A DNA stretch of 64,000 nucleotides from Amoebidium appalachense (taxonomy: Eukaryota > Protista > Ichthyosporea). The notes under the pieces are model-generated. The model worked only from the letters and a program-made list of their open reading frames with translations. It made no database searches and was not told the origin of the DNA. The translations under genes and the position numbers were made by a program. Positions within the stretch are counted from its first letter, which is position 1; the number at the start of each line of letters is the position of its first letter. The stretch is taken from assembly GCA_963693365.1 (NCBI GenBank), contig CAVNZM010000009.1:514963-578962 (forward strand), in the 5' to 3' direction. Of this stretch, positions 3,354 to 60,124 are shown piece by piece.

Positions 3354-29006
<25,653 letters not shown>

Positions 29007-32879: not shown

Positions 32880-33848
32880 GGCACAGAACCTGAAGATGGG
32901 TTAAGGCTCAGCACGTTTGCATTTCTGGACGAGCACCCCAGCGGCCCAGCCTGGTTCCACATCTACAGTCACCAACAAGCCAAAGGTGTGCCTTTGCATC
33001 TTCACGCAAGTGTGCCACTCACTATGTTTCCGTTGATGGAGCCAAGGACACCAGCTAGTTGCAGTATCCACAGCGTGGGTGAAATAAGGCACCCTGGTAG
33101 TGGCGGAAAGTAATAGTGATATTAGTGGTTTGGTGGTGGTGGTGGTGGGTGGGGGGGGGTGGGGGGGATACTATGATATTAATAAAAATCACTGTCCACA
33201 CCCGTAATGGTTGAGGATCTTGCTTGTTGATTTCCGTTTTTTATAATCCCCCCCCCCCCCCCCCCCAAAAAAAAAAAAAATGTTTAGCCCTGCTCGTTTC
33301 TTTTCAAGACGGGTGACCCACACATGTTCAAGTGAAGCCGTATCTGAGTTTGGTTTCGTTGAGAAGATAATGGGTCGAAAATCTGGTACTGCGGATGACT
33401 TGGGTCCCTGTGAGGATGGGATTTGGTAAGTAAGCATACGTGGCTTATGTGTTCCACGGGCTTGCACTCCGCATTGTGTTATCAGTTATGATTGTGTGTG
33501 TGTACTTCAAAATCCATACCTCATATTCTAAACCCCCTTATGTGGTCAACATACACTACACTTTTTACCTTACAACCATCACCACTTGCCATCCCGCACA
33601 CAACAGACAACATCCTTACCCACTTGCTCCGTCACATTTACACCCCCGCACACCCTGGCCACACAGCACGTAATACCCACAAATTTATTCCCTCGCTCTT
33701 ACACCCACGGACTCAGCAACTCAGCACCGCATCTACCACCTCCACCACTACCACCAGGTGCGGGCATGTACACACACACACACACACCCATGGCACCATC
33801 CAATACCAACACACACACACACACACGTGGCACCATCAGAATACCAAC

Positions 33849-42835: not shown

Positions 42836-43785
42836 AAAAAAAAAAAAAACATCAAAATAAATAGATCAATAAAAAATAATAAAAAATAAAATAAAATAAA
42901 AACGGGGGGTGGGGTGGGGTGGGGGTGGGGGTGGGGGGGGGGGGAGGCACACCATCAATTCACACGAAGCACACAAGAAGGGCAAAAAGGAAACGAGAAT
43001 GCATCAGCAGGGACCCATCACCCCATGCTCCATACCCCCCCCCCCCCCCCCCCCCCCCCCACGCACACCCGCACACACGCCAACACACGTACCTGTGGTT
43101 GAGTCGATGATTGCAATGTGTGGGAACCCCTGAAATGGGTAGTATGTGCCGTATGCTTTGCCCTCAGGCGTGTCCACGTTGATCTGTGGCCTATTGTCAG
43201 CACACAGGCACACATGGATGGGTAGGAGTAGATTGCTCCGTTCAGTATGGTGGTAACACTCGTTTGTTCAGTATGGTGGTAACACTGGTTTGTTCAGTAT
43301 GGTGGTAACACTCGTTTGTGAACAAATAGAGGGAGGAGGGCGGTGTGTGTGTGTGTGTGTTCTTAGTGCAACAGCTTGAAATGGTGAGGGGGACTTAGGA
43401 AATGGCAAAGTATACAGCACACATGTTGATTTGGTGTATGCACAGGTAAGATCGTGTGTTTTTTGCAGCGTACAGAACAAGAAGTGCACGTGCCCAGACA
43501 AAATCATTGCTGCTACACATGCAAACCAGGCACATGGATACACATTCCCATATCCAAGCACCCCCACCAGCAAGCTCATTGCACATAACAGGTTAACACA
43601 CAAACACACACACACAAACATCCACCCACCCACCCACCCACCCACCCTCCCGCCCACCCATCCACCCACCCACCCACACCGGCAACATCCACCCACACAC
43701 CCACCCATACTGACACACGGACACGTACACACATCCGCCCACCCACCCTCCCACCCACCTAAACCCCCCCCCTCCCCCCCCCCTC

Positions 43786-43816
<31 letters not shown>

Positions 43817-44217
43817 ACCACACACACACCCACCCATCCACCCACCCACCCACCCACCTGCCACAGAATGAAGTTCTCCCTGACCAGGCGCACCACCGGG
43901 GCCTCTCTCCACAAATCTCTGTTGAGTGTCTGGCACACAAACTCATCGCTCTTCTGCAGGTTGGCTAGCACGTGCTTGCCCTCGTGTTGCCCCTGCTGCT
44001 TGGCCTGGGGGGGGGGGGGGGGGAGAGGGGGGGGGGGGGGGGGAGGGGGAGAATGGGGGGGATTAGAATGCCTTACAGAGTACGAAGCACATGTGAACTA
44101 GGGACAAGACAGTACATATTTCGTTGTATTTATTGAAAAAAGAGGGGAAAAAAAAGATAAAAAGACATCCACAAAGACCTGGGGGGAGGAAGGGGGGGGG
44201 GGCGGGGGTGGGGGGGG

Positions 44218-46821: not shown

Positions 46822-47563
46822 TTCCCCCCCCCTTCCCTCTCCCTCCCTCCCTCCTTTCCTCTTCTCCCTCTCCCTCTCCCCCCACCCTCTCTCCATCTCT
46901 ATCTCTCTCCCCATTCTCTCTCTCTCTCCACCTCCCCCCTCCCCCCCTCTCTCCCCCCTCTCGCTCTCTCTGTCTCCCCCTCCTCCTCCCCCCCTTCCCT
47001 CCTCCCTCGCTTCATCTTTCGCCGTTTCGTTCTAAACCTACCATACAATACCCCCGCAACCCCTCGTTACTAAGCCTCTCCCCACACCTCAGGATCTTAC
47101 ACACGGGCTGGCAAGAGTGTGTCAGAATATCAGAGGTAACAGAAAGTGGAGCTGGAGGGTAACTTCACACTCGACAGCACCTTGTCTGATGCGGATGCGG
47201 AGGATGCAGAGCAGGCACATGTACGGGAAGAAGTTGCATTTGAAGGGGAGAGGGGAGAGGGGTGGGGGGCGAGAGGGGGGAAGAGAAGGGGCGAGAAAGT
47301 GGGAGGGAGATCCAGAGAGAGGGAGGCAGCGAGGAAGGGTTTTTGAGTTAAAGGGGTATACGGATTGAGTTCGGTTGTGCAGCTCTGAGCTATTGGGGGA
47401 AAATACCATTTAAGGAGCCTGGGAGAGAGGGGGGGGGAGAGGGGGGGGGGGGTGGGGCGAAGGGGGTGGGGGGGGGGGGGGGGTCAGCCACCTCCAGCAT
47501 GTTCTGGGCCTCGACCACCGTGGCGCCGGTGATGTCCATAAACTGAGCAACAAGATCGTCCAT
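39371..47563 (-). CDS. UBXN7: UBX domain-containing protein 7-like p97/Cdc48 adaptor (UBA-like, UAS, UIM, UBX), ~13 exons
   Basis: Exon peptides: MDDLVAQFMDITGATVVEAQNMLE|ACGNDLETAVSMFLDGGG (UBA-like); EEEVRAPIP; TLAKMFRPPLDLMF; ANLQKSDEFVCQTLNRDLW..VRENFILWQ and FPHIAIIDSTTGE (UAS); DEDAQLRAAIEASLAES (UIM); LPVEPP..TRLQIRMM|DGSSIMRRF..TMAAAQLVNAAV (UBX). Approximate exons: 47563-47492, 46470-46382, 45945-45801, 45352-45265, 44663-44572, 44004-43858, 43183-43093, 42676-42619, 41943-41879, 41425-41297, 40754-40582, 40021-39911, 39472-39371. Confidence 0.92.
43240..43319 (+). repeat. 26-bp tandem repeat x3 in a UBXN7 intron
   Basis: GTTCAGTATGGTGGTAACACT(C/G)GTTT repeated three times. Confidence 0.9.
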
Positions 47564-48118: not shown

Positions 48119-48253
48119 ATGGCTGGTGTGGGCAATTATGTCAGAGCTGATTGTAAGCCTCCTAACAACCGCCCTGATGAATTGGCTGGAAATCAGACAA
48201 GCGCATGGGCAGGGGGAGAACAGAGCCTGGACGGTAAGTTTTTTTTTTTTTTT

Positions 48254-48284
<31 letters not shown>

Positions 48285-48327
48285 GGGGGGGAAGGGGGGG
48301 GGGGGGGAGGGGGGGAGGGGGGGAGGA

Positions 48328-48358
<31 letters not shown>

Positions 48359-49551
48359 AAGGGGGCGGTTAGTTGAACACTTGAAGAATTAGCCGTTTGA
48401 TGTGAGCAGGCATCTAAGTTCCTTGCAAATAACTAGAGTAGTGATAAGTAATATAGTAATATAGTAATATACAGTAATATAGGCACATGCCATCTAAAAT
48501 TGCACGACACAGCCAACTGCTGCTTCGTGTAGAGCGGACCAGTATTCCTCATTCCTTTCTCTACATTCTTCTCTTTCATGCTCTTCTTGTATGTAAAGAG
48601 CCGATAGTGGTAAGGGTCTAAAAGACACATGTGCATGAGTGATTAAAATGACAGGTGCGGTGGTATTGTCTCTGTGGATTCGTTGCTGCCTCTCGCGTTA
48701 GTGCTTTCTATTATTTGCCTAACACATGATGCAGCCCTGCTGATGGACACGTTTCTACGGCATCTGGACAACGCATTACTTGGTTCCGAAGACCGTGAAC
48801 CACGGCAGGTATGATATGGTGTGCATGCTGCAGGGTCTACTTCTTGAACTTCTTCCACCACGGCAATCAGCCCAAAGCTTTAGTCCTGACTTCGGTCCGT
48901 TCAGTGTTTGGCATGCATTCTAATTTCTTTTGGCCCATTAGCCAGAACACGGCATACATTCTAATTTCTTTTTGCCTATTTACCAGAAACGCTCTTCGTG
49001 GTGGTTGTGAGATAGTGTGTGTGAGTCTGCGCACGTACGTGTGCTCGTGGAGGAGGGTTGAACGGTTGTTCCGGGAGAGGGTGGGAAGGGGAAGCCATTC
49101 AGAAAGCTTGGTGGGGGGATTCGTTGGGGGTAGTCAGAAAATCAAGGTGGCCGGGTGGGGAAGCGGGGCTGACAGTTTCTGGCTGAGAAGTTTGTGGGAT
49201 ATTGGAGCTGGTAAGTGGATATAGGCACAACAAATTGATCGATGTAACTAGCCAACACCCCTTCTCTTCGTGTGAGGGGGCCAGGGGCAGAACAGAGGGA
49301 GGCTTCTGCTGATTGTGCGCCTCGGGAGGGGAGGAGAGGGGTTGGGGGGTTGGGGGGGGTTTGGATAAGGGCAGTAACGATACAACCGTTACACGTTGTC
49401 CGTCCTTGGGTTAACACCTAGAGAATAGTGGGGATGGAGGAAGAGGCGATTATCAAGGGTGATGAAAGAAAGAAAGTCCACATGGTAAGTTACTGACCAA
49501 CAACCCCCCCCTCCTCCCCTCCCCCCCCCCCCCCCCCCCTCCCCCCCCCCC

Positions 49552-49587
<36 letters not shown>

Positions 49588-50899
49588 TTCCTATGTAACC
49601 TACTCCTTTGTCCTCCCGTACACAGGCACGTGCCGGGTCTGGTTTCTCAGGCCCTCTTCATGCATCCAGCCAGCCGGAACTTTACCGCCACTCCCCCCTG
49701 CACTTGAAAGCAGTGGGAGATGGGGACCGGAGAGCCGACAAATCAAGCAGGAGCCTACAGCCAGCAACACGCACTATGGGCACTATGCAACCCAACATGC
49801 CCATTTGCAGGGGGCCCACCAGCACATGCATGGTGGGCACACACAGCAACAGGTTGCTGGGCACCAACCAGCAGACAGCTATCATTCCAGCAACCAACAC
49901 CATCACCCGCTGGGCCAATTTCACCGACCCAGGGCATCATCATTGGGTCAGAGGGACCGTAGCCAGAGAGCATTTTCAGGCGGCTTTGAGCATCCGGGTG
50001 GGCCGGGATCCCACACAGCAAGAAAGGGGCCCTCTCCACTAAGCGCCGACACCACCGTGTCTACACACAGTCCCCAGCCATCACAGCAATACCTAGTAGA
50101 CATGCGGCATTTCCAGTATCCACACCCCATCACCACATCTGACAGGGTGGGTAGACGGCCCTCCTGGGACCTGGGTTTTGCTTGCCACCCTTCCGGGCCA
50201 CCAGAAAGTCCCCATGCGGTATCACGGAGCATGAGTCAGATTGTGCTTGGACGGAGGGGGTCAGAGTCATCAATCCAGTCTGGGTGCTGGGCTCAGGGCA
50301 CTAAGGCCCCTGTGGGCAGAACAAGATCTAGGGCAGATGCGGGTCATTCAAGCCCGGCAAGGTGTGTGGTGTGTGCTGTTTGTGCTTTCTCTTTCTCTAG
50401 CTTGGCCACGCACTGACTTGCTCGCTAAAATATGGATTGTGGTATGGGTGAAGCTGAGTCCATCGCGCGTGTGCCCTAACTCTTTATCTCCTTGATGATG
50501 ACTTTCTTTCTTTTTCTCTTTCTTCTCTCTCTGCATGTGTGATATGTGTACGTGTGTGTGTGTGTGGGTTGGGGAGGGGGGGAGGGGGGAGGGGAGAGGG
50601 GGAGGCGGGGAGGGGGGGGGTTGGGCACGGCTTGTGCGGGGGTTCGGTTGCTTGAATGTTGGGTAAAAAACAATGGTGGATGTCTTTCAACCAATAGTAT
50701 ACGAGCCCTAATTCCAACTCTTCATTAGTTCTTGAGTGCTGCTTTTGGGCGTGCACGTGTATGTATGTGTTCCTGGACAACAGCTTTGGCACCTGTGTGC
50801 TTGGTCAAGGAGTGGGTGGGTGGAAAGCTCGGGGAGGGGAGACAGGGGGGTGGGAAGGTGCGTTTTTTTTTTTTTTTTTTTTTTTTTTTGGGGGGGGGG

Positions 50900-50930
<31 letters not shown>

Positions 50931-52437
50931 AGGGGGGGAGGGGGGAGAGGGGGTGATATGACTACAGACGTAGGGAGTGGTACGGCTATGTCCTGTGTTG
51001 GCCAACTTCAGCAACCACAATGCTGAGTCTGAATCACTGCTACTTTTCACAGGGCCGGGGTCAGAGAGCCTGCAGACCCGTTATCTCTGGTGGGTGGCTG
51101 TGGAAACGCCAATGGGCAATGCTGGGTTAGAGGGTTAGATAGAAGTTGCAGGTAGAGGGGGAAGGAGCATGAAGTAGGAGGTGTGTGGGGTGGAAGATGC
51201 ATTGTCGGTGGTTCGGAAGAAAGAATGGGACTTTATGGATTGCGCTGTTGGATAAGTAGATAAGCCGCATTATATTAGCCACCACCAACTATTACCCAAA
51301 GGCGTAACACACCCTTGGCATATTCTGATATATATCCCCCCCCCCCCCCCCTCCCCCTTTTTTTCTCGGGTGCATGCACCTTTGCTTTCATTGGATGCAC
51401 GGACACACACACACCATAATACCAAAAAAACATTTCGGGGAAAAGAGAGAGAGACACATGCACACCAGTCAAACTGGAACAGACATGCGCACACCTTTTT
51501 TTGTGTGTGCATACACTTGACATAACCACGTGACAGCCTGTCAGCACACACACCGTGGGACACACACACACACGCATGCACACGCACACACATGTACACC
51601 GCAGCGCGCGCACACACACACACACGCACACACACACAACACACACACACACACACACACACACAGCGTACATACACATACACATGCATATATACAAAAC
51701 AATGACACCCACACACCACACACAAATACACAAGCTCCGTACACGCACCGTTGCACAAACGGTCATCTGTAGGCACACATACACACACGCTAGTTTCTAC
51801 CGACAGTCTCACCTGAGCACACCTGCCCCAGCTTGCCTGCACGAACATGCCCTCACTCACGTAAATGACCACCTTCATTTTCACCATTCCCCAGTCTGGT
51901 AGTTTAGCTTGTATCGCGAGTTCATGCACTGCGCATTTGCATTTTTCAACCTACAGAACCAGCATAGCTAGTGCTGTGTTTAACCTGTGATATGCACACA
52001 CAGGGTCTTCGCAGGTCTGGGGCCATGACGGAGCAGCAGCGGCGAGACAGCATGAGGGACTCTCTCAGGGACCTGCAGATGCTGGTGCCCAACATGCGCC
52101 CAGGCACAACACGCGTGCGCATGCTGCAGCAATGTACGTGTCTTATATCTTTCTTGCTCGGTGCAGTTAGCAGTGGCCATGCGTTTCAACCAGGGATAGT
52201 ATCCGGGTACCAGGCAAAGAAGTTGGGAAGATGGTATCTGACATTTTTATCTTTGGGGCGTTATCAACTCCCATGCAATCGTGGTTTTTGTGCTTGCTGC
52301 TTTGCCTCTTATTTTCCGTGGGGAGTGCGGGGGAGAAGTTTTTTCTCCCTTTCTTTCTTTCTTTCCTTCTTTCTTTCTTTCTTTTTTTTTTTTTTTTTAA
52401 CTTTTTCTTCCCTCCCTTTTTTGGTGGTGGTGGTGGT

Positions 52438-52470
<33 letters not shown>

Positions 52471-52631
52471 GGAGGGGGATTTGCAAGCAGGATTGCAGCT
52501 ATTGTAGCATGAAGCTGCAGTGGGATGAGCGGACACCACATCCAGTGTGGCATGGGTTTTATTTGGGCCGTGCGTTCATGTCCTCCATTTAACTACACTA
52601 CATTCACAGATACTGAACACACACACACACA

Positions 52632-52687
<56 letters not shown>

Positions 52688-52841
52688 AACCAGCAGCAGC
52701 TCCCCCCCTCTCCCCCGCCTAGCCCCCCCACCCCCTCCCCGCCCCTCCCCCCTCCCCCCCTCTCTCCCAACCTCGGCACGTCCAAATACACCCATCCTCA
52801 CAGGCACCCAAATCGACCTGGGGGGGGGGGGGGGGAGGGGG

Positions 52842-52880
<39 letters not shown>

Positions 52881-53843
52881 AACCATGTGAAGGGAAAGGA
52901 ACTGATATTGCTGTTTTGTTGAGGGTTCTTCGTCAACTCGTCGTCTCTTTTTAGCGAGATTTGATCGGGAAATGCCCGTGCATTGCACATGGGAAGAAGT
53001 GTAGTGTTTTTTTCCCCCGGGCAGGAGGGGGGAGAGAGGCAGCGTCCGGGGGAAGGGGGAGAGGAGGGGGGAGAGGGAAGCTTAGGTTATAGGGTGGCGT
53101 GTAGCCTATGCATTGACACGGTCTTTTTCCCCCCTCAGCGGTGGAGTACCTGTCCCTGCTCAAGCGGCAGGTATCTGAGCTGCAGGGAGCCTTGCGGCTG
53201 GGCGGTGGGCCGGGGGGGGGATCAGCAGCAGTTTGCAGCCCTGGTCGAGGCCGTGGCAATGCGCCTGAAGGGCCCGGACTCAAATGCTGTCACCGTCACT
53301 TACAAGGACAAGACGGAGGTAAGGGGGGAAGGGGGGGGGGGGGGCTGTGGGGGGTGCTGGGTAATGGTCGTGGCATTGGATGTGATGTGCACTCGATTGC
53401 ACGTCTTTAGGACCTAGGCAAGATGGGCAAGCATACTGTGCGACACATACGTGCGCGCACAGGCGCACACATACATACACACATGCACACACACAAACAC
53501 ATACGCACATACACACACCTGCGAGCACACACTCTCACTCACTCACTCACTCACGTACACACGTACACACACACTCAATAAACAATCACACACTCGCTCA
53601 CATATATACTCACACACACACACACCCATCCACACGCACACACATGTGAGGGCACTTGCACGCACACACCTTTTTCCTCTCCGACTCCCCACCTCTGATG
53701 ATGGGGTGGGCACACAGATGCAGTATGTGGAGCTGCAGAGTACGTCGGAGCTTTGGGATGTGGCCCGGACGGCAGCCGGGGGTGAGATTAAACTCACGCT
53801 GCGGGTCCGGAGACCTCACGAGTGGGACGCCGTCTACGGTTCG

Positions 53844-53931
<88 letters not shown>

Positions 53932-55841
53932 ACGCGCGCGCGCGCGCGCGCGCATACACGTGTGTGCGTGCGTGAGTGCTTGCGTGCGTGAGTGCGTGCT
54001 TGGTTGCTTGCCGGATGTTCGGGCATGTTCCTTATGCAACGTGATTCACTTTTCAAGAAATACACGGGATAAGAGTGTTCTTGCTGCCTGGGTCTCTTAC
54101 CTGCTGTCTTTAGAAATAGGAAGATAATTTGGACAAGGGAGGGTATGGTGAGCGAGTATGTGGGTGGGTAGTTGGTTGGGCGAATGGACGGGCGGGTGGT
54201 GCGGAGTGTGGGTTCGTATGTGTATGTGGGGGGAGGGGGAGGGGGGGGGGGGGGGGAAGAGGGGAAGGGGGGGGGGGGGGGAGGACCGTGTCAACCCCGC
54301 AGCCATGCGCAATGTTATACTCACATGTGTTTTGTGCACATCAGGGCAATGGCGACCCACCAAAAGCCGAGTCAGACTCTGCGGTATGTATCAACACCCC
54401 GTGTACCGCATGTATGTGGGTGTGGTATATGTGCAAGGGTCGGTTTGTAACATGCAGTGGTCCATTTTGCCTCGTTTGCCTGTGCGATATGTATGGTGGT
54501 GCTTGGACTGTCTGCATGCACACTAACAGGGTTTGGGGCTTGGGCAGGATTGGGATCGCTTGTTCGATTGCAACAACCACCAATCATTGGAGGAGGAGAC
54601 ACATACCCTGGACAAGGTGGGTCGCTGTGTTCCGGGGCCAGAGATATTCCTTCTAGAAGCTGTTATAACATTGACAGCAGATAATGGTTTGCCATGTGGG
54701 ATGGGCATATGCATTGGCGTGCATATCATGTGCACGAGCCTTTCTTAAGGGGCCAGGAGGATTAAGAGGTGGTGTTTTTAATGTGTTTGAAGCGTTTAAC
54801 AGACCCCCACATTTCTGTTTTACAGGGCGGGTGCCCAGATTGATGAGCTCAATTAGCGTGCAATTTCCACACACGCTTGCAGTGCTTGCGCTAACTTTCT
54901 GCACCAATCGGCCTTATGCAGTCATATGATTGGCCGGACATGGGAAATCTTTATAGGAATCGTTTGCTTCGCTCAGAAATTGCTGTTAGAGTCAAACCGC
55001 CGGCCAATCGTATCCCAACGGCCTGCCTTATGCTGATTGGTGCAGAAAGACAGTGCAAGCACTGCAGTTGCAAACCCAATGTCGACGGATCAATCTCGGT
55101 GGATTGACAGACTTAATGGCGGCTGCTGAATGGTCAGAGGCGTGTGTGGGTTGTAGCTTTCTGTCGGGAGCCGTTATAATGGGACGTGTGCCTGCATCTT
55201 TAAGTTCCTGACGGGTGGCACCCAGGAACCAAGTGCCGAGGCTGTGGAGCTGCTCTATTCACGCATGCAGAGCAATGCACTTCACAACTTGGGCCCCCCA
55301 CAGTACAAAACAGAGGTGGGTGTTTGCTGCAAACGGTGTGCATGCCCCGGCGAGCACTTGCTTGTGTGCTTGTGAGTGCGTGCATGTGTTCTCATTTGGG
55401 GGAGTGTTAAGAGGGGCGGCCTCGGGGAGAGGGGTGGGGTGGTGGTGGTGGTGGTGGTGGGGGGGGGGGGGGGGGGGGGGGGGGGGAGGGGGGATGAGAT
55501 GGGTTATGATGGTTTTGAAGGTACTGTGTACCAGGGCTCATGGCTGCAACAATAGCCATACTCATGTAATGCCGGATAGCAATGAGATGTCAGCCTACCT
55601 AGCGACCCGTCGACAAGGTAATTGCTTTGTGGATGTGGGTCTCACTATATTTTGTGTTTGAGAGACATACTACGCTTAGAGTGATAATGCAAAAGTAGTG
55701 ATGTTCCCCTCTTTCCTTTGTTCATGGGGCCGTGTTCACAGGAGTGGCAGCTGGCACGTATCCGGCGGTACCTCAAGGCCTGCGACAACGACGTGGAAGA
55801 GGCCCACCGCATGCTCACGGCCCACCTGGACTGGTATGCAC

Positions 55842-55910
<69 letters not shown>

Positions 55911-56123
55911 ACACAGGCACACATGCTCTGGGTGTATGGCCATCAAAGGGCTATGTGGCACTAAGGGTAGGGGGCCGGCAGGATTCACACGGTGCAGCCA
56001 GAGCGGATCGAGCGGTCGGAGGTGTATGGGCTGCTGCGGGCCAACGTGCTCTACTGGCACCGCACAGACCTGCACGGCCACCCGACCCTCGTCTTCCGCG
56101 TATGTGCCTGTGTATGTGTCTGT

Positions 56124-56159
<36 letters not shown>

Positions 56160-58635
56160 GTGTGCTTGTGTACATAGAAGTAGATTGGGTGTGTATGTAT
56201 TTGTGTGGTGACGCATGTACCGGGTGCCTTTGCACGTGTGTGGTTCACGTAGCGTTTGTATGTGTGTTTGCCTGGGATCCCGGTGCCTGGCTTGTTGGGG
56301 CCGGGTGGAAACGGAGGGGGTGGAAACGGGGGGGGGAGGGGGGGGGGGGGGGGGGGGGAGGGGGAAGGAGTTGGGGGGAGGGGGGGGGGGAGGGGGGGGG
56401 GGGGCAAGGGTGAGAACTGATGGTTGGGGCTGTGCAGGCAACCAAGGTGACCGAAATCTTGCCGAGCAAGGAGGACTACCTAAAGATATTCATGTACCGC
56501 ATGTGGGAGTTCTATAAAAGGTGTGTGTGCATAGCCCCGTGTGTGTGCCGCACTGTGCTTGCATGTATCTCTATGCCTGCTCTATGCCTGATCGATGTGT
56601 CTGTGCATGCTTGTGCCATCATCCACACGGATAGCTCATGTGGTATTTGTATTTCCAGTTGTGCATGTTGATGCCACCGTGTCACCCTTTCACCCCGGCG
56701 GTGTGGCAAGACTAGCAGATGCAAAATAGGAAAAACAGCCCGAAAACGCAAGTTTATGTCAATGTACTTTCATAAATCGTGCCTGCCCCCCCCCCCCCCC
56801 CCCCCCCCCCCACCACCACCACCACCATCTCCCCTCTCCTCCCCCCCCCACGCACCCACGCACCCCAACCCACCCCCCTCTTCCCTGGGGATACCCCTAC
56901 CTGATGTTTTCTAGCCCTTCCGGATCAGTGCCCATGTCATAATCTCACACATGCCACATCACGCCACGGGTCTACACCCAGCCCCGCATGCATGCAGAGT
57001 CTAATTATTGAATAACTAATGCGATATATATGTGGGCAGGGTGGACAACCCCTACGGCCGGTTTGTGATCATCTACGACCGACAGGGCAGCCATGTGAAA
57101 AAGGCCCAAATGGATGTCTGGAAGCGCCTGGTTCGCTTCATACTGAGTATGCACTGCAACCCCCCCCCCCCCCCCCCCCCTTGCGAATTCTGCGGCCTTC
57201 GGGACTTAATTCTTTTCAGCTCGTGTAGTATGTTAGCCAGGGAAGTATCGACTTAGGTAGCGACGGGGGAGCTTCCTAGAAGCCCCGTCTCCTGAGTTCC
57301 TATCTATATTTTTCTTGCTTCTGCTTACTGCTGCAACTTTAATCCCCGGCCTTTCCCACTGCCCTTGCCTGCATAAGTAACCCTGCTCGTCTCTGATCAA
57401 GACGGGTGACCTACCCATATTCAAGTGAAACAGTATCTGAGTTGGGTTTCGTTAACGAGGTGAATAGGTCGAAGCTCGGGTACTGTGGATGACGTGGGCC
57501 CCCCCTGAGGATTGGCCCTTGCTTATTATGCATACTCTTTGTGTATGGCTTGCATTCTGCATCGTGTTATCCGTTTGTTCTTGTGTACTTCGTACTTTTT
57601 GACGCATTCAAACCCCCGGGCCGCCGGGGAGCTGCCTGCCCGTTACCACCAAGAAGACACGGGGGGACGTCTCCACGAACATACAGACACGAATACACAA
57701 ACCCTTACACACCCATGCAGAGAACCATGCTAGTCATTGGTATTGGACAGGTAGGCAGGGGGGCAGGCAGGCCATAACGCACCACACATACATGCATACA
57801 CACAACCTGGGCCACATCCGAGCTCATGTGCACCCGGTATACCGAGCGAATAAGAAAGATCGCTAATAAGAAAACAACTAAAAGAGTAAGAATATGTATA
57901 GATAGACACTCTGAAAGTGATAGAGTGAGATTGAGAGGTCGAGAGAATGATACAGGAATACACACAAACATCATCCAGACACCCATGGTACCCCATGCAC
58001 TGCATAGTATACGGATATAACTCAGAATTTCTTGATGTGTGTCTGCAAAACTGCATCTCTACACAATAAACCACTGGTAGTGACACGTACCCCCAGACAT
58101 CTTTACTTCCATGCAACCGGGCATGGTTGCTCTGTGTCGTGCATCTGTAAGCACATACGCGTTTGTCGCTGCACTGCATTAGTTTGCACATACATCTTCA
58201 CCGTTTTGCTCACCTTGCTTGCATAAGCAACCCTGCTCGTCTTTGATCAAGACGGGTTGACCCACCCAAGTTCAGTTGATGCTGCTGTCTGAGTTGGAGC
58301 GTCGTATATACGCGGGCTAAGGGGTCGAAACTCAGACGCAATTGATGACTTGGGCCCTCCCTGAGGATGGGCTCTGCTTATGACGCATACTGTGCGCATG
58401 GCTGATGCTGCATACTTGAATGTTTGCCTTTGCATGTGTCCTGCACCATGCTTCTCATCGTGTATGCGTACTTCGTACTGTGTTCCGCATTCAAAACCCC
58501 CCCCCCCCCCCCCCCCCCCATGACGTTTTGCAGCTTGTTCCTTCGTGTCTCCTTCATATTTCCAACCCTCTAACACATACATCCCCCTCCCCCTCCCCTC
58601 CCTCCCCCCGGCCCACACACGCACGCACGCACACG

Positions 58636-58690
<55 letters not shown>

Positions 58691-59057
58691 ACACACACAC
58701 ACGTACAGTGCACCTCACGGAGCAGGTGCACCGCATCTACATTGTCAAGAGCAACCACGTGTTCCGCTACGGCCTGATGCTTCTGCGACAGGTCATGAGC
58801 CCCCGCTTCCGCCTGGTATTCCGCATCCTGGATGAAGAGGTGGGTGCGAGCATACTAATGTTTGCAGTCATCTGTTGAGGGAGGGGGAGGGGGGAGGGGG
58901 GGGGGGGGGGGGGGGGTAAGGAATCCCGGTTGGCACAGACCTGAAAGCGGTTTACGCTTTGGAATGGTGAGTCTCAGATGTGCATCAAGCAGCTTTTTGT
59001 CCTGAACCGAAGGGGCCCATAAATCGGCTTAAAAAACCCCCCTATTTAGATCCAAAC

Positions 59058-59135
<78 letters not shown>

Positions 59136-59241
59136 GAAGTGCCCTTTTTAAAACCTTTTTGTAAGGCCAGAGGAACTGCGCAAACGGGGCGTGTGGGCCA
59201 GGGATATGGAAGAGGGTGTTTGGGGGGGGGGGGCTGATAAT

Positions 59242-59277
<36 letters not shown>

Positions 59278-59390
59278 TGCAGACGTGGCAGTCGCAGCTC
59301 GTGGCCGAGTTTGGGCGGGAAAACCTCGAGCCAGACCTGGGGGGCACCAGCGTGCCCGTCACGGACGAAGAGGGCATCATCGTGGCATAG
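48119..59390 (+). CDS. Multi-domain protein: low-complexity N-terminus + bHLH-zipper + partial PB1-like domain + CRAL-TRIO_N/CRAL-TRIO (Sec14), ~719 aa, 15 exons
   Basis: Phase-compatible GT-AG exons: 48119-48233, 49626-50361, 51053-51089, 52004-52133, 53139-53318, 53718-53843, 54345-54383, 54548-54616, 55226-55315, 55742-55833, 55982-56099, 56438-56520, 57040-57146, 58709-58839, 59283-59390 (TAG). bHLH: TEQQRRDSMRDSLRDLQMLVPNMRPGTTRVRMLQQ|SVEYLSLLKRQVSELQ. PB1-like: FAALVEAVAMRL..VTVTYKDKTE|MQYVELQSTSELWDV..IKLTLRV. CRAL-TRIO: IRRYLKACDNDVEEAHRMLTAHLDW, HRTDLHGHPTLVFR, FVIIYDRQG, EQVHRIYIV, ENLEPDLGG. One extra G in the run 53212-53220 must be removed for a continuous frame. The first three exons are the least certain. 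Confidence 0.75.
54749..55199. mobile_element. Palindromic MITE with TTAA flanks, Kolobok-like
   Basis: TTAA at 54745-54748 and 55200-55203; imperfect termini GGGGCCAGG / CCTGCATCT. Internal inverted repeats: TGCAGTGCTTGCGCTAACTTTCTGCACCAATCGGC (54878-54912) vs GCTGATTGGTGCAGAAAGACAGTGCAAGCACTGCA (55032-55066), and GATTGGCCGG vs CCGGCCAATC. The superfamily call is an inference from TTAA plus purine-starting ends. Confidence 0.55.
57181..57612 (+). mobile_element. Penelope-like retroelement 3' fragment (end of GIY-YIG ORF + structured 3' region), family copy A
   Basis: Starts right after a C-run with LRILRPSGLNSFQLV* (stop at 57228), matching the PLE GIY-YIG C-terminal motif LxTLxPxGLN. Ends CATTCAAA + CCCCC. 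Nearly identical to 11488-11807 and 9178-9330 (reverse complement). Confidence 0.7.
57620..58496 (+). mobile_element. Diverged Penelope-like element copy B with degenerate GIY-YIG endonuclease remnant
   Basis: 57826-58020 reads TRYTERIRKIANKK...RVRLRGRE...TPMVPHALHS*, resembling the PLE motifs TRYxEHIR, RxxRE and TLxPxGLN. 58214-58496 aligns to copy A. Ends CATTCAAAA + long C-run. The 5' boundary is approximate. Confidence 0.6.
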
Positions 59391-60124
59391 GTGCCATATG
59401 CATTGCTGGGTCAGCAGAAGAGAAATGTGCACTCTGCATGGTAAGCAGACAATGGTCGACCTGGGAAGGAAGGGTGAGGAGCTGGGGTAGAGGTACCCGG
59501 AGGAAGAAGGAGGGGTTATGGGTATGGTTTGGGGTGCATGTAGATGGAAAGGAGAGGGAATGGGTATGTGGGTGCTGTGTGTTCCTTTTCTTTTCTTTTA
59601 TTTGTTCTTTATGAAATTTATTTTTGTTTATTTATTTGTGTTAATTTATTTTTGGCGCGGGGGATAGGGGGGGGAGGGGGGGTGTTAAGGTTGACGCATG
59701 GTGTAAGCAAAATGTAACGGAACAATTAGCTGCTGTTTTTTAATAGTACAAAGAGGGATAGGTTTTAAGGGCTGATCTTTTTTGTGAGTGTAAGTTAGCA
59801 GGAGTGGCTGACTCAGAAATTGGCAACACCCACAAAAGCACAAGTATGTTACTGGTATTATGTTTTTGTATTCTAATCATTTATGTCTTGGTTTATGCAA
59901 AGTATATGCTAGATCTGTCTCTGTAGTTAACTTTTGACTAGCATAGCTTTCTGAATCATTAGCTTTGTACGAATGTTTTATTGCTGTCTTTTAAATTTTC
60001 CTGCGTTACTACCGGCACGGTCAAATTCTTTTCTATTGAGTTAGTACGAATACTAGGAGGGCTTGGGCTCGCTGTGTTTACTCGAAGCATATTATTATTA
60101 ATAAGATGCAAGGTATCAAGAACC

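What the first reader, a model, noticed from the sequence alone, without database searches (positions are those of the whole stretch)
48119..59390. bHLH-zipper transcription factor fused to a PB1-like domain and a Sec14/CRAL-TRIO lipid pocket: candidate one-component lipid-sensing regulator
Seen: 15 GT-AG exons with matching phases at every junction. They run from a disordered N-terminus (IKQEP SUMO-type motif; RRPS and RRGS kinase-type sites) through a Myc/Max-like bHLH-ZIP and a PB1-like segment into a full CRAL-TRIO_N + CRAL-TRIO module; the spliced exons from PB1 to CRAL-TRIO contain no stop. Established: CRAL-TRIO domains bind phosphoinositides, tocopherol or retinoids in an enclosed pocket; bHLH-ZIPs bind E-boxes; plants fuse START lipid domains to HD-ZIP factors. 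Inference: this may be an independently evolved ligand-regulated transcription factor. I know of no described bHLH + CRAL-TRIO protein, but I cannot search. The bHLH-to-PB1 link depends on correcting one base in a G9 run.
Basis: partly seen in the sequence, partly recalled or inferred. Interest (0 to 1): 0.85.

Follow-up and report, generated by a model that had tools for sequence, protein, structure and literature searches.

The report
bHLH regulator fused to lipid pocket
In a single-celled relative of animals, one spliced gene joins a helix-loop-helix DNA-regulator domain to a Sec14-type lipid-carrier domain and likely also makes the carrier alone from an internal start, so it may be a lipid-sensing gene switch, though binding to lipid or DNA is untested.

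Summary
The fusion is real at the RNA level. Spliced contigs from two studies join the bHLH exon through every junction to the CRAL-TRIO exons. They lack one G in the G9 run, so the frameshift is an assembly slip. The CRAL-TRIO part is identical to a 229-aa EukProt protein labelled Amoebidium parasiticum. New here: in 3 of 4 runs a second, unspliced class of contigs enters exon 10 from inside intron 9. That points to an internal start giving this carrier-only isoform.

Weaker than first read:
- The PB1 label was not confirmed by any search.
- The zipper has two heptads.
- The basic region keeps Glu9/Arg12/Arg13 but lacks His5 and has only 4 basic residues.
- The pocket lacks 3 of 4 phosphatidylinositol-binding residues.

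No homolog with this architecture was found in four protein searches, and five literature searches found no description. All of these searches were of limited sensitivity. Best reading: a lineage-restricted, likely lipid-modulated bHLH regulator working like plant HD-ZIP-START factors (0.5). A passenger fusion of two neighbouring genes is not excluded. The scan's earlier notes held nothing on this architecture.

The parts
48119..48233 (+).
   Evidence: GT-AG phase match; contig X3 runs 1342 nt upstream of exon 6 against 1048 nt modelled coding
48735..48808 (+). Exon 2 (modelled)
   Evidence: phase match
49670..50361 (+). Exon 3, low-complexity P/S/G/Q/H-rich region with IKQEP and two RRxS motifs; acceptor may instead be 49626; first in-frame Met inside the exon at 49826
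   Evidence: 95% of sampled words of 49620-50370 held by runs X3-X7; no Pfam hit; composition and acceptor arithmetic
51053..51089 (+). Exon 4 (modelled, 37 nt, needed for phase)
52004..52133 (+). Exon 5: bHLH basic region, helix 1, loop, start of helix 2
   Evidence: PF00010 E 4.6e-4; all 8 PDB hits at E<=1 are Max, best E 0.23; spliced to exon 6
53139..53318 (+). Exon 6: end of helix 2, two-heptad zipper, Gly linker, first half of the PB1-like segment
   Evidence: covered by spliced contigs in X3 and X4
53212..53220 (+). G9 run in the assembly; one base shorter in RNA-derived contigs (assembly slip)
   Evidence: table 4, 2 of 2 contigs that span it
53718..53843 (+). Exon 7: second half of the PB1-like segment
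   Evidence: loose ends; one helix at residues 9-18 in a single-sequence model
54345..54383 (+). Exon 8: linker
   Evidence: joint in 4 of 4 runs
54548..54616 (+). Exon 9: acidic linker
   Evidence: joint in 4 of 4 runs
54878..55066 (.). Inverted-repeat element (44-nt arms, 84% complementary) in intron 9, just upstream of the probable internal start
   Evidence: role untested
55106..55225 (+). Probable 5' leader of the short isoform (unspliced contigs begin at 55106, 55125, 55170)
   Evidence: 3 of 4 runs; strand and true start cannot be read from contigs
55226..55315 (+). Exon 10; ATG at 55265 starts the 229-aa carrier-only protein
55742..55833 (+). Exon 11: CRAL_TRIO_N helices
   Evidence: PF03765 E 1.1e-4; follows exon 10 directly in 4 of 4 runs
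55982..56099 (+). Exon 12: CRAL-TRIO
   Evidence: identity with P0001
56438..56520 (+). Exon 13: CRAL-TRIO
   Evidence: identity with P0001
57040..57146 (+). Exon 14: CRAL-TRIO
   Evidence: identity with P0001
58709..58839 (+). Exon 15: CRAL-TRIO, gate-helix region
   Evidence: PF00650 E 0.024 on the exon alone; 100% identical to P0001
59283..59390 (+). Exon 16: end of CRAL-TRIO and stop codon
   Evidence: identity with P0001

Best explanation
One gene is spliced into an mRNA that joins a divergent bHLH domain in frame to a Sec14/CRAL-TRIO domain, and the fused protein is likely a transcription regulator whose activity is predicted to be tuned by a hydrophobic ligand in that domain. Shown: the splicing, the open frame and the two domains. 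Inferred, in order: (1) an internal start in intron 9 also makes a free 229-aa carrier; (2) the pocket binds something other than phosphatidylinositol or phosphatidylcholine, because most signature residues are replaced, so a neutral lipid or small lipophile is likelier; (3) filling the pocket closes the gate helix and changes membrane docking or dimer state, as in other lipid-transfer modules; (4) the bHLH, which keeps Glu9, Arg12 and Arg13, binds E-box-like sites weakly as a dimer, helped by the short zipper and the PB1-like segment; (5) the free carrier buffers or delivers the same ligand.
For: Junctions from exon 5 to exon 11 are in spliced contigs of two studies, with G8 in place of G9. 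One X5 contig of 1316 nt runs from about 53240 in exon 6 to past the stop. The X3 and X4 contigs run unbranched from at least 1079 nt upstream of exon 6 into exon 10. The only X3 contig in the 5' part of intron 9 has depth 3.6 against 61.8 for the spliced path, so the bHLH half shows no major 3' end of its own. CRAL-TRIO: Pfam E 3.6e-17; top Foldseek hits all Sec14 family, best E 2.9e-6; VIA Z 10.2, rmsd 4.0, 166 aligned to CRALBP, from a low-confidence model. bHLH: Glu9, Arg12, Arg13 kept. Precedent for a captured lipid domain gating DNA binding: HD-ZIPIII START (PMC10226595, abstract).
Against: The basic region has 4 basic residues in 17 and Gly in place of His5; the plant rule of more than five would class it non-DNA-binding (PMC8519403, passages). 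No ortholog or second example was found, so conservation of the fusion is unshown. The runs laid are 99%+ alike to the window and are not an independent species. No K-K/R-x-K/R nuclear signal. The carrier-only form looks at least as abundant as the fused form (spliced share 0.32-0.46 by contig depth, a poor measure), as expected if the carrier were the original gene. Short-read contigs show junctions, not full-length molecules.
Confidence: 0.5

Rival explanations
1. The long form does not bind DNA itself. It is an Id-like or partner-type HLH protein that ties up other bHLH factors (such as Max-like proteins), and the lipid pocket sets where or when it does so.
For: Only 4 basic residues and no His5. 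The helix 1 and helix 2 hydrophobic pattern is kept and closest to Max. Myc and Max partners exist in unicellular holozoans (PMC11564870, passage).
Against: Glu9, Arg12 and Arg13, the E-box-reading residues, are all retained; Id-type proteins lose the basic region (recalled).
Confidence: 0.2
2. A recent, functionally neutral fusion: a bHLH gene lost its last exon and now splices into a neighbouring Sec14-like gene that kept its own promoter. The pocket rides along without regulating the bHLH.
For: Probable internal start just before the CRAL-TRIO exons in 3 of 4 runs. EukProt holds the carrier as a stand-alone protein. With the G-run corrected, introns 6-10 are all phase 0, which makes in-frame joining easy. 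No homolog of the fusion.
Against: Splicing into exon 10 is near complete in the contigs seen and the frame is open through two small linker exons. The homolog searches also missed every other Sec14 or bHLH relative, so their blanks carry little weight.
Confidence: 0.2
3. Both forms are cytoplasmic lipid-transfer proteins. The bHLH and PB1-like parts serve only to oligomerise or anchor the long form.
For: No basic nuclear-signal pattern. Multi-domain Sec14 proteins mostly act at membranes (recalled; neurofibromin and kalirin Sec14 domains appear among the fold hits).
Against: A 300-residue low-complexity N-terminal region with an IKQEP motif and the retained E-box residues fit a nuclear regulator.
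Confidence: 0.1

Closest known systems
Plant HD-ZIP III/IV START-domain transcription factors (PHB, GL2, PDF2, ATML1)
   Same: A dimerising DNA-binding domain and an enclosed lipid pocket on one chain; START ligand binding gates dimer DNA binding (PMC10226595, abstract seen).
   Different: Unrelated folds on both sides (homeodomain versus bHLH, START versus CRAL-TRIO). HD-ZIP-START is deeply conserved; no relative of this fusion was found.
Max/Myc-type bHLH-ZIP factors
   Same: All 8 PDB hits of exon 5 are Max (weak, E 0.23-0.63); Glu9, Arg12, Arg13 kept.
   Different: His5 lost, 4 basic residues, zipper of two heptads, C-terminal lipid domain.
Sec14/CRAL-TRIO proteins (Sec14p, SEC14L2-4, alpha-TTP, CRALBP, Arabidopsis PITP7/CPSFL1)
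   Same: Pfam and fold match. Like PITP7 it lacks R65, T236 and K239 equivalents (PMC9546280, passage).
   Different: Fused to a bHLH; 7-19% identity to solved members; N-terminal helical part short.
Multi-domain CRAL-TRIO signalling proteins (PTPN9, neurofibromin, kalirin/Trio)
   Same: CRAL-TRIO attached to an effector domain; PTPN9 homologs occur in ichthyosporeans (PMC4342544, passage).
   Different: Their effectors are enzymes or GTPase regulators, not DNA-binding domains.
Other lipid- or ligand-sensing transcription regulators: bHLH-PAS (AhR), SREBP, yeast Opi1-Ino2/Ino4, nuclear receptors (recalled; Opi1 seen in a search listing only)
   Same: Lipid or small lipophile coupled to bHLH-type or other DNA-binding output.
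   Different: No PAS hit; no transmembrane segment (highest 19-residue hydropathy 0.94), so not SREBP-like; Opi1 is a separate protein from its bHLH targets.

Membership tests
bHLH (PF00010) | Profile match over basic region, helix 1, loop, helix 2 | tested here: met
   Exon 5 alone: E 4.6e-4, 20.4 bits against cut-off 20.7, profile 2-32 of 53; the rest of helix 2 lies in exon 6 and was read by eye
E-box-binding bHLH | Glu9 and Arg12 | tested here: met
G-box-binding (group B, Myc/Max) bHLH-ZIP | His5-Glu9-Arg13 | tested here: not met
   Position 5 is Gly; rule from PMC8519403
DNA-binding bHLH (plant rule) | More than five basic residues in the basic region | tested here: not met
   4 in the 17 residues ending at Arg13; the rule is a plant heuristic
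Myc/Max bHLH-ZIP | Leucine zipper of several heptads after helix 2 | tested here: inconclusive
   Leu357, Leu364, then Gly371: two heptads
PB1 domain (PF00564) | Profile or fold match to the beta-grasp PB1 domain | tested here: inconclusive
   No hit for either exon half; whole segment not scanned or folded; helix-strand-strand-helix-strand pattern only partly supported by hydrophobic moments; the first two strands seem absent (recalled topology)
Sec14/CRAL-TRIO (PF00650) | Profile match and fold | tested here: met
   63 bits against cut-off 22.6, profile 4-153 of 153; Foldseek and VIA top hits
Sec14/CRAL-TRIO with CRAL_TRIO_N (PF03765) | N-terminal helical domain | tested here: inconclusive
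   19.9 bits against cut-off 23, profile 36-53 of 54 only
Sec14-type phosphatidylinositol transfer protein | PtdIns barcode R65, E207, T236, K239 | tested here: not met
   By alignment to SEC14L2 (weak, E 0.14) and the numbering R45/E184/T213/K216 given for SEC14L6 (PMC12658205): Cys, Glu, Phe, Val; 1 of 4 kept
Ligand-regulated transcription factor | Ligand binding changes DNA binding, dimerisation or localisation | not testable with these tools
   needs biochemistry
Single fused gene | Spliced in-frame junctions from bHLH to CRAL-TRIO | tested here: met
   full-length molecules not seen

The most novel reading that the evidence does not exclude
An independently evolved, nuclear-receptor-like lipid sensor built on the Sec14 fold in a unicellular relative of animals. 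One locus makes both the ligand-gated bHLH factor and, from an internal promoter, the free carrier that delivers or buffers its ligand, closing a feedback loop within a single gene.
Probability: 0.3. Interest if true: 0.82.

Novelty: new variant of a known kind. Interest (0 to 1): 0.62.

Why it matters
Lipid pockets have been joined to DNA-binding domains several times (nuclear receptors, bHLH-PAS, plant HD-ZIP-START). A bHLH-CRAL-TRIO protein would add a new fold pairing and show the Sec14 pocket can be wired directly to transcription. It lies in an ichthyosporean, a lineage used to study the origin of animal gene regulation. The built-in carrier-only isoform gives a natural control and a testable snapshot of how domain capture starts: an upstream gene splicing into a neighbour that keeps its promoter. 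It also shows why such genes are missed: a homopolymer slip breaks the genome model, and the protein set searched here holds only the short form.

Tried and rejected
Homolog searches.
- Exon 7, longer proteins: 13 candidates, 0 scored.
- Exon 15, longer proteins: 1 of 1 candidate, the short isoform itself.
- P0001, proteins of 402-2000 aa: 469 candidates, 0 scored.
- phmmer of exon 5 against 1.84 billion representatives: 1 hit, P0002, an 865-aa repeat protein with no HLH family, rejected as chance. It found no ordinary bHLH either, which shows how insensitive a 43-aa query is.
- Metagenome and viral contig scans: 0 of 16, 0 of 1 and 0 of 112 pattern matches confirmed.
- ESM Atlas: generic CRAL-TRIO clusters for P0001; only sub-0.9 phage-protein leads for exon 7, rejected.

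Runs. The run search listed no holder on record as RNA; X3, X4, X5 and X13 are treated as RNA-derived because their contigs are spliced. X1 laid nothing on exon 6.

Gene model. A micro-exon near 55594-55617 was tried and rejected because exon 10 is followed directly by exon 11 in 4 of 4 runs. An acceptor at 55998 and a donor at 51132 were rejected on phase.

Mechanisms. SREBP-like membrane tethering: no hydrophobic segment. FFAT-like motif near residue 467: failed my pattern. PB1: no family, PDB or Atlas support; the exon 7 model gave one helix and no strands. No paralogous exons elsewhere in the window.

Other. No whole genome is held, so other bHLH partners could not be listed. No complex was predicted. 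Earlier scan notes: 0 for the architecture, sequence or genome; one search returned 8 unrelated viral rhodopsin notes.
Full report
Observation. I rebuilt the gene from the sequence and found 16 coding exons with GT-AG introns on the + strand, 48119-59390. As assembled, the frame breaks at a G9 run (53212-53220) and ends after 431 residues. Read through with X at the run it gives 727 residues. The frame after the run that continues into the CRAL-TRIO exons has third-position GC of 0.76 against 0.38 for the unshifted frame, like the other domain exons. The window is rich in long G and C runs, so slips are expected.

RNA evidence. A run search with exon 3 listed 24 runs, 13 holding the stretch, none on record as RNA. 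I laid 6 of them. On exon 6 (X3, X4, X1, X11), X3 and X4 each gave one contig that covers the exon exactly, lacks one base at 53212, and continues with the last 30 bases of exon 5 before it and the first 30 of exon 7 behind it. X1 laid nothing and X11 gave an unspliced piece from 53213. On exons 8-10 (X3, X4, X5, X13, which are 3 samples of 2 studies), all 4 runs show the joints 8-9 (164 skipped) and 9-10 (609 skipped, GT..AG), exon 7 before exon 8, and exon 11 directly behind exon 10. One X5 contig (1316 nt) runs from about 53240 in exon 6 to about 270 nt past the stop. So every junction from the bHLH exon to the first CRAL-TRIO exon is present in spliced sequence, and the frameshift is an assembly error. 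These are short-read contigs: they prove junctions, not whole molecules.

A second isoform. In X3, X4 and X13 the long contig stops 30 bases into exon 10 because a second, unspliced contig enters there from inside intron 9, starting at 55170, 55106 and 55125. Depths add up roughly: 61.8 + 133.7 against 194.9 downstream in X3; 18.8 + 21.9 against 47.1 in X4; 4.6 + 6.3 against 8.4 in X13. X5 shows no such branch. The 5' part of the intron has depth 3.6 in X3 and none in the others, so this is not plain intron retention. The first open in-frame ATG (55265) gives a 229-residue protein; three short upstream ORFs lie in the leader. A search with exon 15 returned exactly that protein, P0001, filed in EukProt as Amoebidium parasiticum, an ichthyosporean (PMC4342544, passages). 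An internal promoter is the simplest reading, but contigs cannot show starts or strand, so it is inferred. A 44-nt-arm inverted repeat lies just upstream.

N-terminal part. Exons 1-4 rest on phase and on contig length: X3 has 1342 nt and X4 1079 nt upstream of exon 6, against 1048 modelled. The share of sampled words held by the spliced-type runs (0.95 of 77, against 0.97 in the best DNA runs) fits an exon 3 acceptor at 49626 (75.4 expected) better than 49670 (70.7). If so, either a second slip lies early in exon 3 or translation starts at Met 49826, which would leave out the IKQEP motif. The bHLH-to-CRAL-TRIO frame is unaffected.

Domains. The bHLH scores just under the Pfam cut-off on exon 5 alone, and its only PDB neighbours are Max (8 of 8 hits, E 0.23-0.63). 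It keeps Glu9, Arg12 and Arg13 but has Gly at position 5 and 4 basic residues in 17. By the plant rules quoted in PMC8519403 (passages) it has the E-box residues but not the G-box set, and too few basic residues. The zipper has two heptads. The segment at residues 375-437 resembles the last three quarters of a PB1 domain by recall. No search supports the name, and only the exon halves were tested. CRAL-TRIO is firm: 63 bits over the whole profile, and a single-sequence model (pLDDT 49.8) whose top matches are Sec14-family structures. Aligned to SEC14L2 (weak match) with the residue numbers given for SEC14L6 in PMC12658205 (passage), the phosphatidylinositol positions R65/E207/T236/K239 read Cys/Glu/Phe/Val and the two phosphatidylcholine positions read Phe and Ile. 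Arabidopsis PITP7 lacks the same three residues and was suggested to bind another ligand (PMC9546280, passage). Sec14 homologs can hold very different cargo, including heme (PMC7462610, passages).

Mechanism. I favour a bHLH regulator tuned by a non-PI, non-PC lipophile in its pocket (0.5). [quoted passage not shown] Either switch could be used here, and the short isoform could deliver or buffer the ligand. All of this is inference. Rivals: a non-DNA-binding HLH sequestering partner (0.2), a neutral recent fusion (0.2), and a cytoplasmic transfer protein (0.1).

Distribution. Four protein searches, three contig scans and two Atlas look-ups found no second protein with the architecture, and not the long isoform itself. 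They also failed to return ordinary bHLH or Sec14 sequences by alignment score, so they are weak; InterPro could not be queried. The laid runs carry two organism labels but are 99%+ alike to the window, so they do not show conservation between species.

Literature. Searches for CRAL-TRIO + bHLH + domain architecture (1 paper), Sec14 + helix-loop-helix + fused + transcription factor (22 papers, 20 listed), Amoebidium + bHLH (1), CRAL-TRIO + ichthyosporea (1) and bHLH + PB1 domain terms (4) showed no description of this fusion. I saw listings only, except for the papers cited with passages. The library is open-access only and I read no supplements; domain-architecture tables there could list it.

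Verdict. The function is plausible but unshown, and three of its labels (PB1, zipper, Myc/Max-type binding) are weaker than written. It is a new pairing within a known kind of system, with an added carrier-only isoform. Interest 0.62.

Noticed in passing
window 47563 and below, - strand (exons seen at 47480-47563 and 43763-44097): Head-to-head neighbour with UBA_4 (E 3.5e-6) and Thioredoxin_7 (E 7.9e-11) hits, resembling UBXN7-type proteins (name recalled). Its ATG is about 550 nt from the modelled bHLH ATG, so the promoter may be shared.
   Followed up: partly
window about 3700-27100, - strand: Large multi-exon helicase gene with Sec63 Brl (E 5.4e-42) and SNRNP200 winged-helix hits: a Brr2/SNRNP200 ortholog, ordinary.
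   Followed up: partly
window 54878-55066: MITE-like inverted repeat 40-100 nt upstream of the probable internal start; no second copy in the window, but X3 pieces with mismatches suggest copies elsewhere. It might supply or affect the internal promoter.
   Followed up: partly
window 57283-57617 and 58213-58413 (intron 14): Two copies of a dispersed repeat, 76% alike to each other, with further copies at 11484-11817 (96%), 9173-9330 and 33285-33508; possibly a SINE or tRNA-derived element.
   Followed up: no
window 49435-49491: An ATG-started 17-codon frame ending at a GTAAGT donor in intron 2, a possible alternative first exon (read).
   Followed up: no
window 59359-59391: The 701-nt downstream contigs of X3 and X4 end 31 nt before the end of exon 16, which suggests a branch at the stop, where a GT follows directly: possibly an alternative 3' UTR intron.
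   Followed up: no
window 55116-55211: Three short upstream ORFs (ATGs at 55116, 55130, 55179) in the leader of the probable short isoform could damp its translation.
   Followed up: no
whole window: Introns are full of very long G and C runs (up to 42 G and 88 C) and CA/GT repeats, so other gene models in this assembly may carry similar homopolymer frameshifts.
   Followed up: no
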